Positions 1 through 5,502 of a DNA stretch of 5,502 bases are shown here, piece by piece. The position numbers were made by a program, and so were the translations under genes. The notes under the pieces are model-generated. The model did no database searches, was not told the origin of the DNA, and saw only the letters and a list, made by a program, of their open reading frames with translations. Every line of letters starts with the position of its first letter. Position 1 is the first letter of the stretch. The DNA is from a virus: positions 1-5,502 of IMG/VR virus record IMGVR_UViG_3300045988_051723. One strand, given 5' to 3'.

Positions 1-89
1 AGACTAGAGGCCGAAAGACTATATAAACAGATAGAAGCTGGATTCAAGATGATAAAAAAAGTGTCCAGCTCAGAAGACGCAAAAAAAAT
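1..89. repeat. Terminal redundancy (left copy), marking a circular genome with a 5413-nt unit
   Basis: Bases 1-89 (agactagaggccgaaagactatataaacag...gacgcaaaaaaaat) recur exactly at 5414-5502. An ORF starting at 5366 reads through the junction without a stop. Confidence 0.9.
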
Positions 90-198
90 CATTGACCGAA
101 TCTGGATAATGAAGAAATGGGCTAACGACATCGAACTGGAGCTACTCAGAAAGGAGTACACACATGAAGCACAGACAGAAAATGCCGGGACGCACTGA
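1..198 (+). CDS. Hypothetical protein, 3' part of an 81-aa ORF that starts at 5366 and crosses the circular junction
   Basis: Frame 1 is open from base 1 to TGA at 196-198 (65 codons). Position 1 equals 5414, which is in frame with ATG 5366. Joined product: MMHKTWNVRDQTEESLRLEAERLYKQIEAGFKMIKKVSSSEDAKKIIDRIWIMKKWANDIELELLRKEYTHEAQTENAGTH. It looks helical and charged, has no hydrophobic segment, and I recognise no family. Confidence 0.5.
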   Translation, partial: RLEAERLYKQIEAGFKMIKKVSSSEDAKKIIDRIWIMKKWANDIELELLRKEYTHEAQTENAGTH

Positions 199-2575: not shown

Positions 2576-2595
2576 AGCCCGGAGAAATCCGGGCT
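2576..2595 (+). promoter_or_regulatory. GC-rich stem-loop between VP1 stop and VP2 start (attenuator and/or SD-positioning hairpin)
   Basis: AGCCCGG (2576-2582) pairs perfectly with CCGGGCT (2589-2595) around loop AGAAAT, and is followed by ATTTTATA. It sits between the strong SD AAAGGAGGA (2567-2575) and the VP2 ATG (2604). Confidence 0.55.
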
Positions 2596-2603
2596 ATTTT
2601 ATA

Positions 2604-3431
2604 ATGGCAGGATTAGGAGCAATGCTTGCAAGTGGAGCAGCCAAAGCAGGAACATGGTTAGCACAGAACCCAGCAGTCATAACCGGAGCGATGCAACTGC
2701 TGGGCGGTGGACTATCATCAATGTACGGCCAAAAAAGCGAAAACATCAGCCAAGGAAGCAACGTAAGCACAGGAAAGGGCGGTGGAACATCACAAAGCGT
2801 TGCAGAAGGCGGCACGAATGACGAACAGATAATGAAATATCTCAGTCAGTACTACAACTGGCAAGGAGGACAAAATGCTTTTCAAAGTAAGACAAACCGC
2901 GAAAATATGCTCATGCAGATGGGATACAACACATTGGGCGCAATCCAACAAGGAATATACAACCACATCGAGCAAAACGCAGCCATGTCTTACAACAGCG
3001 CAGAAGCGCTAGCAAACCGCAACTTCCAAGAAAGAATGAGCAACACAGCATATCAAAGAGCCGTAGAAGATATGCGAAAAGCAGGACTTAACCCAATTTT
3101 GGCATACGCACAAGGTGGAGCAAGCACGCCGGGGGGCTCAGGCGCAACAATCACAGGCGCAAGCATGGGAATGCCAGTGTCAAGCGCTCTGGGAGTATCT
3201 GCGCTAAGCGGCAACGTGCCAAACAGCTACTACAATAAAAGCATTGCAAAATCAACGTGGTATCAGCTCTCCGAAGCCGTAGGAAGTCAAATGTCAAAAG
3301 GCTATACAAGCCCATACGAACTAACGAAAGACTTGCTAAAAACATACGAACAAATGGAAGATACAGAAAAAACCATTCCATTCCAAACAGGCGGAGGAAG
3401 TTTCCACACAGGAGGAGGTAGAAAAAAGTGA
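2604..3431 (+). CDS. VP2: DNA pilot / minor capsid protein VP2, 275 aa
   Basis: It has a Gly/Ala-rich hydrophobic N-terminus, a low-complexity G/S/Q region, and the block [33 protein letters not shown], which I recognise as characteristic of gokushovirus VP2. It lies directly after VP1. No alternative start exists between the VP1 stop and ATG 2604. Confidence 0.9.
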
Positions 3432-4447
3432 GTTGTTACAAGCCATTAATAAGGCTGTACAACCCGGACAACAAGGAAATCAGCGGACGGGTGTATTCAC
3501 TCGTCCGCCTTTCTCAGTTAAGCGGGAAACAGCTAAAGTATGAAGATTTGATGTATAATCCAAAAGTTATGTTAATACCATGCGGGCAATGCATCGGATG
3601 CAGAATAAGGCAACGAGAGGACTGGACAACACGAATCGAGCTAGAAGCAAGAGATTACCCAAAAGAACAAGTATGGTTTATCACACTAACTTATGATGAT
3701 AACCATGTACCGGGCATGATAGTAAAGACAGGCGAAATCATGCGAAAAGTACAATACACATGGAAGCCAGGAGAGAAGCGCCCAGACAGCGTACAAACTC
3801 TGCTATATGAGGATATTCAAAAATTTTTAAAACGTCTCAGGAAAGCTTACAGGGGCAAATTACGCTATTTTGTAGCGGGTGAATACGGAGAACAGACAGC
3901 AAGGCCGCACTATCACATGATACTATATGGTTGGGAACCAACAGACCTAAAAAACTTGTACAAAATTCACCACAATGGATACTACACCAGCAAGTGGTTG
4001 GCAGACCTCTGGGGCATGGGTCAAATACAGATAGCACAAGCCGTTCCAGAAACCTATAGATATGTTGCAGGGTATGTAACAAAAAAGATGTACGAAATTA
4101 ACGGCCAGAAATCTAATGCATACTATGAGCTGGGACAAACGAAACCTTTTGCTTGCATGAGCCTAAAACCAGGTCTCGGAGATAAATACTATCAAGAGCA
4201 CAAAGCAGAAATATGGAAACAAGGGTACATTCAATGCACCAACGGAAAACAAGCACAGATTCCAAGATACTATGAAAAGCAAATGGAAGCAGAAAACCCA
4301 CAAAGATTGTGGAGAATAAAACAAAACCGACAGAAAAACGCAATGGAACAAAAAAGATTGCAGCTAGAGAATCAAGACTACAAAACAGTCCTAGAGACAA
4401 AAGAACGTGTCACCAAAAAACAAACGAAAAAACGTGGTATTTTATAA
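3428..4447 (+). CDS. VP4: Rolling-circle replication initiator VP4 (HUH endonuclease superfamily), 339 aa
   Basis: The GTG start at 3428 overlaps the VP2 stop (GTGA) and lies 9 nt after GGAGGAGG (3411-3418). Motifs present: [19 protein letters not shown] motif HYH in [10 protein letters not shown] (3908-3916), and the paired catalytic tyrosines YVAGY in [11 protein letters not shown] (Y-x-x-x-Y, as in phiX174 protein A). Confidence 0.95.
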
Positions 4448-4460
4448 TCGGTGTCACCTA

Positions 4461-4500
4461 GCCCAGTACCTATCAAGTAAGGTACTGGGCATTATTATTC
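4461..4500 (+). terminator. Intrinsic-terminator-like hairpin after VP4
   Basis: GCCCAGTACCT (4461-4471) pairs perfectly with AGGTACTGGGC (4480-4490), giving an 11-bp stem and 8-nt loop. It is followed by ATTATTATTC, an interrupted T tract, and starts 14 nt after the VP4 stop. It could instead be a structural signal in the ssDNA. Confidence 0.6.
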
Positions 4501-4504
4501 TAAT

Positions 4505-4554
4505 CGCGCACACACGTACACGCGAAAAGTACACGCGCACGCGTGCGCACGTAT
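4505..4554. repeat. CpG-rich alternating purine-pyrimidine island with an internal palindrome and direct repeats
   Basis: 4505-4524 (20 nt) and 4529-4554 (26 nt) are each perfectly alternating pyrimidine/purine, separated by AAAA. There is a perfect 14-nt palindrome, GCGCACGCGTGCGC, at 4535-4548. GTACACGCG is repeated at 4516-4524 and 4529-4537. AT-rich flanks are ATTATTATTCTAAT and TATTATAATATAAC. Confidence 0.9.
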
Positions 4555-4599
4555 TATAATATAACTTGTTGTAGTCGTAGTAGTAGGGTATGTGGAAAA

Positions 4600-4755
4600 G
4601 TTGAAAACTACCATTTTATAACGACAGAGCGTAAAAAAAACAGCTAAAAAAGTGTTGAAAGATTTGTTAAAAACTTGTTGAATTGTTGAAACACTCTATT
4701 GTGCTAAAGTTTAACAATGTTGAAATGTTGAAAACTATGTTGAAAATGTTGAAAA
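4600..4755. repeat. Iteron array: nine copies of (A)TGTTGAAA(A)
   Basis: Copies: 4600-4607 (GTTGAAAA), 4653-4660, 4665-4672 (TGTTAAAA), 4676-4683 (TGTTGAAT), 4684-4691, 4718-4725, 4726-4734, 4738-4746, 4747-4755. All are in the same orientation. Within the two clusters the starts are 8-12 nt apart. Confidence 0.9.
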
Positions 4756-4782
4756 CGCCTGCGGCGGGCACCTGCGCAAAAA

Positions 4783-4808
4783 GTCAAGATCGCAAAAGCG
4801 ACCTTGAC
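4783..4808 (+). promoter_or_regulatory. Hairpin that sequesters the -35 box of the downstream promoter
   Basis: GTCAAG (4783-4788) pairs with CTTGAC (4803-4808), and TCGC (4790-4793) pairs with GCGA (4798-4801). There is one A/C mismatch and an AAAA tetraloop. The 3' arm contains TTGAC of the -35 hexamer. Confidence 0.55.
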
Positions 4809-4832
4809 AGTTTGCACAGGCAATGATATAAT
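4804..4832 (+). promoter_or_regulatory. Consensus sigma70-type promoter with extended -10
   Basis: TTGACA (4804-4809), a 17-nt spacer, then TATAAT (4827-4832), with TG at 4824-4825 (TGnTATAAT). It is followed by AGGAG (4849-4853) and ATG 4860. Confidence 0.75.
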
Positions 4833-4859
4833 CCGAAATAGAAAAGAAAGGAGACCACC

Positions 4860-5255
4860 ATGAAAAACATCAAGTTCATCAAAGCAAATTACGGCAAACT
4901 GAGCGAACACTTCAAAGCAAAAGAATTTCAGTGCAAAGACAAGAACGAGTACATGTTGGTCTGCGAAGAACTGATAGCAACACTTGAAACAATCAGGGAA
5001 CACTTCAATGCACCAGTAATAATCAACAGCGGATACAGGACACCAAGCTGGAACTTCGAAGTGAGCGGAGCGCCAGATTCAATGCACTGCAACGGCATGG
5101 CCGCCGATATCGTAGTAAAAGGACACTCAAGTAAAGAAGTTGCAAAGTATGCAAGTGAGCTGATGGACACCTTCGAAAGCAAAGGCGGCGTAATCAGATA
5201 CACGAATTTCACGCATATTGATGTACGTGAAGAAAGATACAGAAAGGGGGTGTAA
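4860..5255 (+). CDS. Peptidase M15 family zinc D-Ala-D-Ala carboxypeptidase-like cell-wall hydrolase (putative endolysin), 131 aa
   Basis: LSEHFKAKEFQC, INSGYRTP, SMHCNGMAADI and FTHIDVR match the Peptidase_M15_3 / LAS-metallopeptidase pattern (SxHxxGxAxD and a distal H). Predicted zinc ligands are H76 (5085-5087), D83 (5106-5108) and H119 (5214-5216). ATG lies 6 nt after AGGAG. There is no N-terminal hydrophobic or signal segment. Confidence 0.92.
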   Translation: MKNIKFIKANYGKLSEHFKAKEFQCKDKNEYMLVCEELIATLETIREHFNAPVIINSGYRTPSWNFEVSGAPDSMHCNGMAADIVVKGHSSKEVAKYASELMDTFESKGGVIRYTNFTHIDVREERYRKGV

Positions 5256-5257
5256 AA

Positions 5258-5362
5258 ATGGCATTGATTAAGGTCAAAGACCTGCGGGAAGCAATCCAGA
5301 TGATCAAATGCGTTCTGGAAAAGCTCGACGAGATCTATCACATCCTGAAGGAAAAGGAGTAA
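5258..5362 (+). CDS. Hypothetical 34-aa protein
   Basis: It is too short for the ORF track. ATG 5258 lies 7 nt after AAAGGGGG (5243-5250) and 2 nt after the peptidase stop. Product: MALIKVKDLREAIQMIKCVLEKLDEIYHILKEKE, an amphipathic helix with no transmembrane segment. Its last codons contain the SD of the next ORF. Confidence 0.45.
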   Translation: MALIKVKDLREAIQMIKCVLEKLDEIYHILKEKE

Positions 5363-5365
5363 AGC

Positions 5366-5502
5366 ATGATGCACAAAACATGGAATGTGCGAGACCAGAC
5401 CGAAGAAAGTCTTAGACTAGAGGCCGAAAGACTATATAAACAGATAGAAGCTGGATTCAAGATGATAAAAAAAGTGTCCAGCTCAGAAGACGCAAAAAAA
5501 AT
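5366..5502 (+). CDS. Hypothetical protein, 5' part of the 81-aa junction-spanning ORF (continues at base 90 after the duplicated 89 nt)
   Basis: ATG 5366 lies 6 nt after AAGGAG (5354-5359). The frame is open to the window end. From 5414 onward it duplicates bases 1-89. Confidence 0.5.
   Translation, partial: MMHKTWNVRDQTEESLRLEAERLYKQIEAGFKMIKKVSSSEDAKK
5414..5502. repeat. Terminal redundancy (right copy)
   Basis: Exact copy of bases 1-89. Confidence 0.9.

What the first reader, a model, noticed from the sequence alone, without database searches (positions are those of the whole stretch)
4860..5255. Endolysin-type M15 peptidase in a microvirus, first gene behind the strongest promoter, with no holin or signal peptide
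Classical Microviridae lyse with a single-gene amurin (phiX174 E blocks MraY), and cultured gokushoviruses have no recognised muralytic enzyme. This genome encodes a clear LAS/M15-type zinc peptidase (SGYR, SMHxxGxAAD, THID). The protein has no signal or SAR-like hydrophobic N-terminus. Reading the other + frames of 4860-5413 and 1-163 by eye, I found no small ORF with a transmembrane segment. How a cytoplasmic peptidase reaches the murein is therefore unexplained. Candidates are the Gly/Ala-rich hydrophobic VP2 N-terminus, the two downstream orphans, or a host system. The gene is also promoter-proximal, an odd position for a lysis gene, so timing must be controlled after transcription or by substrate access. 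As far as I recall, M15-type peptidases have been noted in a minority of metagenome-assembled microviruses, so presence alone may not be new. The holin-less arrangement and the dedicated promoter are the points to check. Together with the 412-nt non-coding region and two orphans, this module accounts for the genome being 5.4 kb, versus about 4.4-4.9 kb in cultured gokushoviruses.
Basis: partly seen in the sequence, partly recalled or inferred. Interest (0 to 1): 0.72.

Follow-up and report, generated by a model that had tools for sequence, protein, structure and literature searches.

The report
Holin-less M15 cell-wall peptidase in gokushovirus
This small gut ssDNA phage carries a real cell-wall-cutting enzyme copied from tailed phages but none of the membrane-hole proteins that normally let such enzymes out; the gene itself has been known in this virus group since 2012, and how it reaches the wall is still unanswered.

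Summary
Window 4860-5255 encodes a 131-aa Peptidase_M15_3 (M15A) enzyme with all catalytic motifs, no signal or SAR sequence, and no credible membrane-protein ORF on the coding strand. It sits 28 nt behind the only perfect sigma-70-type promoter in this 5,413-nt circular gokushovirus genome.

The presence of the gene is not new. Roux et al. reported M15_3 peptidases in gut Gokushovirinae in 2012, and GenBank relatives are annotated 'peptidase M15'. More than 590 close homologues sit on microvirus-sized contigs.

- The promoter is the genome's main promoter zone, not one dedicated to lysis.
- The 'orphans' are conserved genes under purifying selection that also occur in peptidase-less relatives.
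- The one near-hydrophobic ORF (4407-4559) is a covarying DNA/RNA hairpin.

The holin-less state is clade-wide: 60 of 60 assessable relatives have the peptidase and no credible membrane-protein ORF. Six of ten peptidase-less relatives instead carry a conserved 32-38-aa single-TM protein.

Most likely the peptidase is an endolysin captured without its holin. It would accumulate in the cytoplasm and reach the murein by a holin-independent route that is still unknown. This is a new member of a known kind, of modest interest.

The parts
4860..5255 (+). M15A (Peptidase_M15_3) zinc peptidase, 131 aa, endolysin-type. Zn ligands H76, D83, H119; also R60, F117, D121.
   Evidence: Pfam E=1e-23 and PHROG endolysin E=5e-37. 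Motif residues invariant. dN/dS 0.08-0.23. 1LBU profile hit E=5.6e-5. BFVD fold matches to viral M15A peptidases, TM 0.72-0.76.
4804..4832 (+). Sigma-70-type promoter TTGACA-17-TG-n-TATAAT, 12/12. Probably the main promoter of the whole + strand operon.
   Evidence: Only 12/12 site in the genome. Equivalent sites lie upstream of the peptidase in 46 of 76 relatives, and nearly all strong sites fall in this zone.
4847..4853 (+). Shine-Dalgarno AAAGGAG, 6 nt before the ATG
   Evidence: Sequence.
4783..4808 (.). Imperfect inverted repeat (10 of 11 pairs) whose 3' arm holds the -35 hexamer. Relatives have a hairpin overlapping -35 in the same place.
   Evidence: Function not tested.
4448..4859 (+). 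412-nt non-coding region, a conserved DNA-level module: hairpin, alternating Pu/Py block, invariant AACTTGTTGTAG..GTAGTAGTAG, TGTKGAAA repeats, variable spacer, promoter.
   Evidence: Alignment of 15 relatives. Repeats.
4461..4490 (+). 11-bp stem, 8-nt loop hairpin just after VP4. It accounts for the only near-hydrophobic ORF (4407-4559), which is therefore not a gene.
   Evidence: Compensatory changes at three or more stem positions across relatives. The ORF is frame-shifted or interrupted among relatives.
5258..5362 (+). o34: conserved 34-aa helical, net-neutral protein (..ILEKLDEIYH..). Start is 2 nt after the peptidase stop.
   Evidence: Synteny in all relatives. dN/dS 0.03-0.29. Present in peptidase-less genomes. 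No family hit.
5366..5502 (+). o81, N-terminal part. This 81-aa ORF runs across the circular junction; 5414-5502 repeats 1-89. Conserved KTWNxRDQ motif.
   Evidence: dN/dS 0.12-0.24.
1..198 (+). o81, C-terminal part up to its stop codon
164..283 (+). o39: small, very basic protein, probably a DNA-binding/packaging protein like phiX J or gokushovirus ORF8. Overlaps the end of o81.
   Evidence: PHROG 10695 E=1.7e-10. 74-92% identical in window-type (peptidase-bearing) relatives and 49-62% in peptidase-less ones. The analogy to J is from my own knowledge.

Best explanation
The gene encodes a true zinc-dependent cell-wall peptidase of the M15A type, the same kind of small single-domain endolysin used by many tailed phages. 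An ancestor of this large gut gokushovirus lineage captured it from a tailed-phage lysis cassette without the neighbouring holin, and it has been kept under purifying selection since.

Expression: it is the first cistron of the genome-length + strand operon, driven by the one strong promoter in the non-coding region. It has a strong ribosome-binding site, so it is probably made from the start of infection and accumulates, folded and harmless, in the cytoplasm, as canonical soluble endolysins do.

Access to the murein: no phage holin, SAR sequence or signal sequence provides it. The route I consider most likely is that the enzyme reaches the wall only once another viral function has breached the membrane or weakened the wall. 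That function is unidentified and would be core to the clade. The peptidase would then dissolve the sacculus and speed or complete virion release.

Shown: enzyme family and intact active site; absence of an export signal and of any conserved membrane ORF across the clade; promoter-proximal position; tailed-phage homologues sitting next to membrane proteins.

Inferred: murein-degrading activity (from characterised homologues of the same Pfam family); timing; the existence of a separate primary lesion.
For: Family and motifs:
-.
- Characterised M15A / Peptidase_M15_3 single-domain endolysins lyse cells only after the outer membrane is permeabilised. They share SxHxxGxAxD, (W/F)xH and the conserved Arg (LysPM1, PMC13461873). 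Those motifs are all present here.

Absence of signal and membrane partner:
- No signal and no TM ORF in the window.
- The two weak candidates are refuted by comparison.
- 60 of 60 assessable IMG/VR relatives have the peptidase and no credible TM ORF.

Origin from tailed phages:
- Homologues at 42-47% identity sit beside TM proteins or spanins. In MT835826 a 68-aa two-TM ORF directly follows a 146-aa M15A. Vibrio K435 has a 74-aa TM protein nearby. UAB_Phi78 has a spanin.

Selection and age:
- dN/dS 0.08-0.23.
- Peptidase GC 0.434 against 0.453 for the genome, suggesting an old, ameliorated acquisition.

A peptidase-independent lysis route in this clade:
- Ten relatives lack the peptidase.
- Six of them have a small TM protein instead.
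- Four have neither.

Promoter zone.

Literature: the gene class has been interpreted as lysis-related since 2012 (PMC3394797, PMC9239249), and a different microvirus peptidoglycan hydrolase (Ebor Gp7) was shown to be active (PMC11980548).
Against: - No experiment exists on this protein or any close homologue.
- The supposed 'primary lesion' function is not identified.
- Peptidase-bearing genomes lack the small TM protein found in some relatives, so nothing in them is known to breach the membrane.
- The gene is retained in every assessable close relative, which fits an essential role at least as well as an accessory one.
- The AlphaFold model (pLDDT 76) found no significant PDB match, so fold support rests on sequence profiles and predicted viral structures.
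- The host is unknown, so it is unclear whether one or two membranes must be crossed.
Confidence: 0.55

Rival explanations
1. Self-sufficient single-gene lysis. The peptidase crosses the cytoplasmic membrane without any phage partner. This could be through a host pathway (as reported for some Gram-positive phage lysins) or through its own basic termini: a 13-aa N-terminal extension and the C-terminal KYRKGV. Lysis timing would then be set by slow export and accumulation.
For: - The peptidase is universally retained and no partner is found in 60 of 60 relatives.
- Peptidase-bearing and TM-mini-protein-bearing genomes do not overlap in the genomes examined, as expected if each is a complete lysis device.
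- The microvirus enzymes carry an N-terminal extension (MKNIKFIKANYGK) and a KYRKGV tail that tailed-phage homologues lack.
- Holin-independent endolysin export exists in other systems (PMC8541568 abstract; my own knowledge of Oenococcus fOg44, mycobacteriophage Ms6 and pneumococcal phage SV1).
Against: - No hydrophobic or signal-like segment.
- The N-terminal extension is predicted as a short beta-strand and is not hydrophobic.
- Characterised M15A homologues need outer-membrane permeabilisation and are not known to cross membranes (PMC13461873).
- Constitutive export from the strongest promoter would risk premature lysis.
Confidence: 0.15
2. Hidden partner among the conserved proteins. o34, o81 or the Gly/Ala-rich N-terminus of the pilot protein VP2 permeabilises the membrane or chaperones the peptidase, taking the place of a holin.
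For: - The peptidase, o34 and o81 are tightly packed, with 2-3 nt gaps and a Shine-Dalgarno sequence inside each upstream gene end.
- All are under purifying selection.
- The VP2 N-terminus is uncharged and Gly/Ala-rich in the window and in relatives.
- Mycobacteriophage Ms6 uses a small chaperone next to its lysin (my own knowledge).
Against: - o34, o81 and VP2 all occur in relatives without the peptidase, so they have roles independent of it.
- o34 is net neutral and looks like a coiled coil, and o81 is hydrophilic. The best 19-residue Kyte-Doolittle mean is 0.77 for o34 and 0.12 for o81.
- The VP2 maximum is 1.21.
- They hit no known protein family.
Confidence: 0.12
3. Enzymatic 'amurin'. 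The enzyme stays in the cytoplasm and destroys peptidoglycan precursors such as the D-Ala-D-Ala end of UDP-MurNAc-pentapeptide or lipid II. This blocks wall synthesis, so growing cells lyse, as with phiX174 E or Q-beta A2, and no export is needed.
For: - The only PDB sequence relative is the Streptomyces albus zinc D-Ala-D-Ala carboxypeptidase 1LBU.
- The Arg said to bind the substrate's terminal carboxylate is conserved (R60; PMC13461873).
- Cytoplasmic M15 enzymes such as VanX exist, and their over-expression is reported to lyse E. coli (my own knowledge).
- It would explain the holin-less, promoter-proximal arrangement neatly.
Against: - Homologues of the same Pfam family that have been characterised degrade mature murein from outside (PMC13461873).
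- The closest relatives are endolysins in canonical cassettes.
- No match to the VanX or VanY families at E<=0.01.
- Relatives lacking the peptidase show that the clade does not depend on it.
Confidence: 0.08
4. Not a lysis gene. The peptidase would be a virion-associated or entry-phase murein hydrolase, or serve another role such as remodelling the wall of the infected cell.
For: - Tailed phages use the same domain in structural proteins. MT835826 has an M15A domain at the C-terminus of a 680-aa protein.
- Ebor Gp7 was detected in trace amounts in virions (PMC11980548).
Against: - The protein is small and free-standing, with no capsid-binding region.
- It is most similar to free endolysins.
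- Microvirus capsids have little spare room, and the pilot protein is thought to form the DNA conduit (my own knowledge).
- The Ebor signal was only a trace.
Confidence: 0.05

Closest known systems
M15_3 peptidases of human-gut Gokushovirinae and Alpavirinae (Roux et al. 2012, PMC3394797); GenBank 'peptidase M15' in KX513868, KX513877, MG945781 and others
   Same: - Same Pfam family.
- Same virus group and habitat.
- Same position between VP4 and VP5/VP3.
- 42-66% protein identity to GenBank relatives and up to 96% to metagenomic proteins.
- Already interpreted there as a horizontally acquired, probable endolysin.
   Different: - This exact genome is not in the phage collection. The best DNA match has 77-80% identity over 61% of the genome or less.
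- It lacks the extra ORF and the second promoter that many relatives carry upstream of the peptidase.
Single-domain M15A endolysins of tailed phages of Gram-negative hosts (LysPM1 of Proteus phage Homer, phage ST79 peptidase M15A, Spp64; Zindervirus UAB_Phi78 gp53)
   Same: - Same fold family.
- Similar size (114-121 aa in the tailed-phage homologues read here and 116 aa for LysPM1, against 131 aa here).
- Same motifs: SxHxxGxAxD, (W/F)xH and the conserved Arg.
- No signal peptide.
- 42-47% identity (PMC13461873).
   Different: - Those enzymes work within cassettes that include holins and spanins. Here none exists.
- The microvirus enzyme has a 13-aa N-terminal extension and a KYRKGV tail.
- It lacks the Cys-rich CxCxxC segment seen in the tailed-phage homologues.
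Peptidoglycan hydrolase Gp7 of microvirus Ebor ('Tainavirinae'; PMC11980548) and the M15 peptidases of 'Occultatumvirinae' roseophages (PMC11499846)
   Same: An accessory murein hydrolase in a microvirus with an enlarged genome, taken to act in lysis. Ebor Gp7 activity on peptidoglycan was shown experimentally.
   Different: - Different microvirus lineages and hosts (Alphaproteobacteria).
- Ebor Gp7 is reported to match a different structure (6SSC), and Ebor also encodes a predicted 45-aa membrane protein (Gp1).
- The gene positions differ.
phiX174 protein E and other single-gene lysis proteins (amurins)
   Same: Lysis in a microvirus without a holin-endolysin-spanin set, and a lysis gene in a heavily transcribed region with no temporal transcription programme (my own knowledge).
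   Different: - E is a small membrane protein that inhibits MraY and has no enzymatic activity on murein.
- Here there is a soluble hydrolase and no membrane protein.
- An E-like small TM protein is seen only in peptidase-less relatives.
Streptomyces albus G zinc D-Ala-D-Ala carboxypeptidase (PDB 1LBU), type enzyme of M15A
   Same: The only solved structure found by sequence (E=5.6e-5 with the profile). The NSGYR / xxHxxGxAAD segment aligns.
   Different: It is a secreted 213-aa two-domain bacterial enzyme. Only about 45 residues align, and its activity is carboxypeptidase rather than lytic endopeptidase.

Membership tests
Peptidase M15A / Pfam PF08291 Peptidase_M15_3 | Significant full-length match to the family profile above the curated cut-off | tested here: met
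   83.9 bits against a cut-off of 23.2, E=1e-23, profile positions 2-108 of 108. PHROG 894 endolysin E=5e-37.
Peptidase M15A / Pfam PF08291 Peptidase_M15_3 | Zinc-binding motif SxHxxGxAxD plus the third ligand His in (W/F)xH (motifs as given in PMC13461873) | tested here: met
   S74-M-H76-C-N-G79-M-A81-A-D83 and F117-T-H119. All are invariant in 21 homologues.
Peptidase M15A / Pfam PF08291 Peptidase_M15_3 | Conserved Arg equivalent to R138 of 1LBU and an acidic residue near the site (D106 of LysPM1) | tested here: met
   R60 in SGYR aligns with GFRS of 1LBU. D121 is invariant.
Peptidase M15A / Pfam PF08291 Peptidase_M15_3 | LAS / Hedgehog-type fold | tested here: inconclusive
   The AlphaFold2 model has pLDDT 76. 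There is no significant Foldseek match in the PDB (best E=0.064, unrelated proteins). There are clear matches to predicted viral M15A peptidases in BFVD (E down to 2e-15, TM 0.72-0.76), but these share sequence with the query.
Peptidase M15A / Pfam PF08291 Peptidase_M15_3 | Zinc-dependent hydrolysis of murein peptides | not testable with these tools
   Needs purified protein, sacculi or muropeptides, and EDTA/Zn and active-site mutant controls.
Canonical holin-endolysin(-spanin) lysis cassette | A small protein with one or more transmembrane segments (holin) encoded in the genome | tested here: not met
   No + strand ORF of 20 aa or more has a 19-residue Kyte-Doolittle mean of 1.6 or above. 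The candidates 4407-4559 and 2092-2160 are refuted. No credible candidate in 60 of 60 relatives.
Canonical holin-endolysin(-spanin) lysis cassette | Spanin or other outer-membrane disruptor (lipoprotein signal or TM anchor) | tested here: not met
   The same hydrophobicity scans found no signal-like segment in any + strand ORF. No dedicated lipobox predictor was available.
SAR or signal-peptide endolysins | N-terminal hydrophobic signal or signal-anchor-release segment | tested here: not met
   The N-terminus MKNIKFIKANYGKLSEHFKAKEF is basic and hydrophilic, and the protein-wide Kyte-Doolittle maximum is 0.61. An in-frame TAG lies 6 codons upstream. The longer gene calls in databases have hydrophilic extensions.
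Single-gene lysis proteins of phiX174 E type | Small membrane protein, often overprinted in another gene | tested here: not met
   All three + frames were scanned stop-to-stop. The alternative-frame ORF in VP1 is not conserved. A candidate of this kind exists only in peptidase-less relatives.
Cytoplasmic M15 precursor peptidases (VanX / VanY type) | Match to the VanY (PF02557) or VanX-type families | tested here: not met
   At E<=0.01 only PF08291 matched, plus a sub-threshold match to PF05951 (M15_2, 22.1 bits against a cut-off of 27). NCBIfam gave only a weak MepK match far below its cut-off.

The most novel reading that the evidence does not exclude
Within one gut gokushovirus clade there would be two interchangeable, complete lysis devices: a 32-38-aa single-TM protein in some lineages and, in the lineage of this window, a soluble M15A peptidase that lyses the cell with no membrane partner at all. 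The peptidase would act either by unassisted or host-assisted passage across the membrane, or by destroying wall precursors in the cytoplasm. Either would be a kind of phage lysis not yet described for endolysin-type enzymes in ssDNA phages.
Probability: 0.2. Interest if true: 0.65.

Novelty: new member of a known kind. Interest (0 to 1): 0.3.

Why it matters
Gokushoviruses are among the commonest phages of the mammalian gut, yet how any of them lyses its host is unknown. This lineage is a clean natural case of an endolysin kept for a long time without holin, SAR or signal sequence. A sister lineage uses a small membrane protein instead.

If the peptidase alone proves sufficient for lysis, that would add a new route to phage lysis and a very compact lysis cassette for biotechnology. 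If it is not sufficient, the comparison points to where the missing function must lie, namely the conserved small proteins or the structural proteins. As a gene discovery it adds little, because the peptidase has been reported and annotated in this virus group since 2012.

Tried and rejected
1. GTG ORF 4407-4559 (Kyte-Doolittle 1.56, the only near-TM ORF). Rejected. Its 'AQYLSSKVLG' segment is the hairpin 4461-4490, which shows compensatory changes. Its C-terminus changes frame among relatives, and insertions interrupt it.
2. Alternative-frame hydrophobic ORF inside VP1 (2092-2160), as an E-like overprinted gene. Rejected. Stops break it at varying places in most relatives.
3. Longer N-terminus carrying a signal peptide. 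Rejected. There is an in-frame stop upstream, and database variants with extensions are hydrophilic.
4. o34 and o81 as peptidase-specific partners. Weakened. Both occur in peptidase-less genomes.
5. Foldseek of the AlphaFold model against the PDB. Uninformative.
6. Host identification:
   - A VP1 scan of 185,579 species genomes found nothing.
   - The peptidase scan found two microvirus-sized contigs binned into Bacteroides and Prevotella MAGs, and distant (37-38%) homologues in Faecousia.
   - The binning conflicts with the strong Shine-Dalgarno sites and the TTGACA/TATAAT promoter.
   - The host remains unresolved.
7. Rfam scan of the window: no family found.
8. PHROG and NCBIfam searches for o34, o81 and the TM mini-protein: no informative hit.
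9. Recent transfer. Not supported. The peptidase GC content matches the genome.
Full report
**What the window is.** The 5,502-base window is a complete circular microvirus genome of 5,413 nt with an 89-nt terminal redundancy: 1-89 equals 5414-5502. All recognisable genes are on the + strand:
- o39, 164-283, small and basic, PHROG 10695
- VP5, 295-537
- VP3 scaffold, from about 530 to 925
- VP1 capsid, 912-2564, Phage_F E=1.8e-137
- VP2 pilot, 2604-3431
- VP4 replication initiator, 3428-4447
- a 412-nt non-coding region, 4448-4859
- the peptidase, 4860-5255
- o34, 5258-5362
- o81, from 5366 across the junction to 198

The nearest GenBank records are human, pig and monkey gut gokushoviruses at 75-82% nucleotide identity over at most 61% of the genome.

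**Checking the observation.** The ORF is a clear Peptidase_M15_3 (M15A) domain.
- Pfam gives E=1e-23 across the entire profile, and PHROG 'endolysin' gives E=5e-37.
- S57-G-Y-R60, S74-x-H76-x-x-G79-x-A81-x-D83 and F117-x-H119-x-D121 are present and invariant among 21 aligned homologues.
- They correspond to the zinc triad, the carboxylate-binding Arg and the (W/F)xH motif described for characterised M15A endolysins (PMC13461873).
- The only solved structure found by sequence is the M15A type enzyme 1LBU: E=0.009 with the single sequence and 5.6e-5 with the profile.
- An AlphaFold2 model (pLDDT 76) gave no meaningful match in the PDB. It did match predicted viral M15A peptidases, including those of other microviruses, with TM 0.72-0.76. 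I count the fold test as inconclusive and rest family membership on profile and motifs.

**No export signal.** The protein has no hydrophobic N-terminus; its best 19-residue Kyte-Doolittle mean is 0.61. An in-frame stop 6 codons upstream rules out a longer form. Longer database gene calls are hydrophilic read-throughs.

**Is there a membrane partner?** Every + strand ORF of 20 aa or more in the circularised genome, and every stop-to-stop frame, was scanned for hydrophobic windows. Two weak candidates appeared, and both fail on comparison.
- The GTG ORF 4407-4559 (Kyte-Doolittle 1.56) looked conserved in several relatives. However, its hydrophobic core is the translation of a hairpin (4461-4490). 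That hairpin is almost invariant in all relatives and shows compensatory double changes at three or more stem positions. The C-terminal part changes reading frame among relatives while the nucleotides stay conserved, and insertions interrupt it in others. It is a DNA or RNA element, not a gene.
- The alternative-frame ORF inside VP1 (2092-2160) is cut by stops at varying positions in most relatives.

In 60 of 60 IMG/VR relatives where the region could be assessed, the peptidase is present and no credible TM ORF exists. The two hits flagged in that scan were the repeat-expanded hairpin region and one ORF on an odd 8.8-kb contig. The holin-less state is therefore real and clade-wide.

**The promoter.** TTGACA-17-TATAAT with a TG extension at 4804-4832 is the only 12/12 site in the genome, and nothing else exceeds 9/12.
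- Across 76 distinct peptidase-bearing relatives, 46 have a site of 10/12 or better within 120 nt upstream of the peptidase.
- 82 of 108 such sites fall in the interval from the non-coding region to the peptidase.
- Almost none lie elsewhere.
- Many relatives have two such promoters, one before an additional small ORF and one before the peptidase.

All genes follow on the same strand. The only terminator-like + strand hairpins sit after VP1 (2576-2595) and after VP4 (4461-4490). The simplest reading is that this zone starts transcription of the whole genome and that the peptidase is its first cistron. It is not a dedicated lysis promoter. Microviruses are not known to programme transcription in time, and phiX174 E lies within the heavily transcribed D gene (my own knowledge).

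**The 'orphans'.** The order VP4, non-coding region, (optional ORF), peptidase, o34, o81, o39, VP5, VP3, VP1, VP2 is conserved in all relatives examined.
- dN/dS against relatives is 0.03-0.29 for o34, 0.12-0.24 for o81 and 0.07-0.16 for o39, similar to VP5 and the peptidase. They are real genes.
- tblastn finds o81 in only 27 records of the phage collection, all gokushovirus-like records from gut or faecal samples. It has a conserved KTWNxRDQ motif.
- None hits Pfam or NCBIfam. o34 has no PHROG hit, and o81 (tested as its C-terminal 49 aa) only a weak one to a family of unknown function.
- o34 and o81 also occur in relatives that lack the peptidase. They are therefore not peptidase-specific helpers.

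**Peptidase-less relatives.** Ten GenBank genomes of the same clade (VP1 53-59% identical) lack the peptidase.
- Six of them carry a conserved 32-38-aa protein between o39 and VP5. It has one strongly hydrophobic segment (Kyte-Doolittle 2.0-2.45) and a basic tail, for example MNIMIAVGTGATIIAMCSAAFALIAMGIDIIKNWRKSK. These are MG945657, MG945382, PV067914, KT264788, KT264789 and KT264790.
- Four have neither the peptidase nor such a protein: MG945381, MG945780, MG945423 and MT135259.
- No peptidase-bearing genome has the small TM protein.

With so few peptidase-less genomes this is a lead, not a result. It suggests two things. The small TM protein and the peptidase may be alternative lysis devices, and the clade also has some lysis capacity that depends on neither.

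**Origin.** Tailed-phage homologues at 42-47% identity are free single-domain endolysins lying beside membrane proteins.
- In the human-gut phage scaffold MT835826, a 146-aa M15A is followed directly by a 68-aa two-TM ORF. The same domain also ends a 680-aa protein, probably structural.
- Vibrio phage K435 has a 74-aa TM protein two genes downstream.
- UAB_Phi78 has a spanin.
- The closest cellular homologues found are only 37-38% identical, in Faecousia.
- The peptidase GC content (0.434) matches the genome (0.453).

The gene was therefore most likely taken from a tailed-phage cassette, without the holin, long ago. Two diverged peptidase lineages (41-45% identical to each other) share the microvirus-specific N-terminal extension and the KYRKGV tail.

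**Mechanism.**
- Best supported: a genuine murein peptidase that accumulates in the cytoplasm and acts at release, with access to the wall by a route that is not holin, SAR or Sec-signal. I favour dependence on a separate, unidentified membrane or wall lesion, because relatives lacking both the peptidase and the TM protein exist.
- Rivals: self-sufficient export or lysis; a hidden partner (o34, o81 or VP2); cytoplasmic destruction of wall precursors; and a non-lysis role. The rival-explanations section gives the evidence and refutation tests for each.
- None of the export steps is shown.

**Host.** The host is unresolved.
- Strong AAAGGAG-type ribosome-binding sites lie before eight of nine genes.
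- There is a consensus extended -10 promoter.
- Both argue against Bacteroidota (my own knowledge of their promoters and translation signals).
- Against this, two relatives are binned into Bacteroides and Prevotella MAGs as microvirus-sized contigs, which is weak evidence.
- Whether one or two membranes must be crossed is therefore unknown.

**Comparison with what is known, and novelty.**
- M15_3 peptidases in human-gut Gokushovirinae and Alpavirinae were described in 2012. They were interpreted as horizontally acquired endolysins, and the authors noted that the association with holin-endolysin cassettes in dsDNA phages was surprising for microviruses (PMC3394797).
- Peptidases are listed among the few accessory genes of microviruses (PMC9239249).
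- They occur in most 'Occultatumvirinae' (PMC11499846).
- A different microvirus murein hydrolase has been shown to be active (Ebor Gp7, PMC11980548).
- GenBank relatives are annotated 'peptidase M15', and more than 590 close homologues exist, nearly all on 5.2-6.0-kb contigs.

This window is thus a new member of a known kind. What remains open, and is sharpened here, is the clade-wide absence of any membrane partner and the possible alternation with a small TM protein.

**Verdict.** Interest is modest (0.3). The most novel reading not excluded, a self-sufficient holin-free peptidase as a lysis device, has a probability of about 0.2.

Noticed in passing
window 4461-4490: An 11-bp stem, 8-nt loop hairpin directly after VP4. 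It is nearly invariant across about 90 related loci, with compensatory double changes at three or more stem positions. It could be a terminator, or a replication or packaging signal on the ssDNA.
   Followed up: partly
window 4559-4588: TATAACTTGTTGTAGTCGTAGTAGTAG is almost invariant in all aligned relatives. Its AACTTG core resembles the phiX174 origin nick context (CAACTTG/ATATT, from memory), so it may be the VP4 nicking site or origin. AACTTGTTG recurs at 4672-4680.
   Followed up: no
window 4591-4754: Seven + strand copies of TGTKGAAA in 164 nt, against 0.55 expected in the whole genome. They are conserved in position in the relatives. The TGTGGAAAA variant fits the DnaA-box consensus as I recall it. 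They may be iterons or binding sites for a host or phage protein.
   Followed up: partly
window 4503-4553: A CG-rich block of alternating purine and pyrimidine (CGCGCACACACGTACACGCG...CGCGCACGCGTGCGCACG), forming an imperfect palindrome. Relatives keep the character of this block but not its exact sequence.
   Followed up: no
L127 4545-4661; L125 4756-4872; L126 5148-5264; L124 4769-4885; L022 2265-2363; L027 2290-2391: Peptidase-less relatives carry a conserved 32-38-aa single-TM protein (..IDIIKNWRK) between o39 and VP5. Its start overlaps the o39 stop. It is unannotated in GenBank and is a candidate lysis (amurin- or holin-like) protein. It is absent from all peptidase-bearing genomes examined.
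   Followed up: partly
L023, L024, L026, L128 (MG945381, MG945780, MG945423, MT135259): These clade members have neither the peptidase nor the small TM protein, so how they lyse their host is unknown. They carry other small ORFs between VP4 and o34.
   Followed up: no
window 5366-5502 and 1-198 (o81); 5258-5362 (o34): Two small helical proteins found only in this gokushovirus clade, under purifying selection, with no informative family match. o81 has an invariant K-x-W-N-x-R-D-Q motif and o34 has ILEKLDxIYH. Their function is unknown.
   Followed up: partly
L005-L007, L009, L012 (about 250 nt upstream of the peptidase); L001, L010, L015: Many relatives have an extra small ORF (for example MKHTYELRKFNDDESLTTVLK...) with its own consensus promoter between the non-coding region and the peptidase. 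A second promoter follows whose -35 lies in the loop of a terminator-like hairpin. The interval from the non-coding region to o34 looks like the clade's hot-spot for accessory genes.
   Followed up: partly
window 2576-2595: A GC-rich 8-bp hairpin followed by ATTTTATAAT between VP1 and VP2. It may be an attenuator lowering VP2 and VP4 expression. VP2 is the only gene without a clear Shine-Dalgarno sequence.
   Followed up: no
window 1-89 = 5414-5502: An 89-nt terminal direct repeat from assembly of a circular genome. ORF o81 is split by the linearisation and is missed by ORF lists that do not wrap.
   Followed up: yes
L013 / L045 about 2104-2283: In one relative the ATTATTCTA stretch after the hairpin is tandemly expanded. 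This turns the spurious ORF into an apparently perfect TM protein (Kyte-Doolittle 2.95) and could trap automated holin prediction.
   Followed up: yes
L129 (MT835826) 399-2441, 2453-2893, 2890-3096: A 17-kb human-gut phage scaffold carries the M15A domain twice: at the C-terminus of a 680-aa protein, probably structural, and as a free 146-aa endolysin followed by a two-TM holin-like ORF. It is among the closest non-microvirus relatives (47% identity).
   Followed up: partly
L031, L032 (CAVKUS010000079.1, CALBJK010000280.1): Microvirus-sized contigs (5.7-5.8 kb) with this peptidase are binned into Bacteroides sp. CAG:545 and Prevotella MAGs. The phage's strong Shine-Dalgarno sites and TTGACA/TATAAT promoter argue against a Bacteroidota host, so these are probably binning artefacts.
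   Followed up: partly
L025 (MT135277): In this record the peptidase is split by frameshifts and o81 is truncated. The record is marked UNVERIFIED, so this may be sequencing error or real decay.
   Followed up: no
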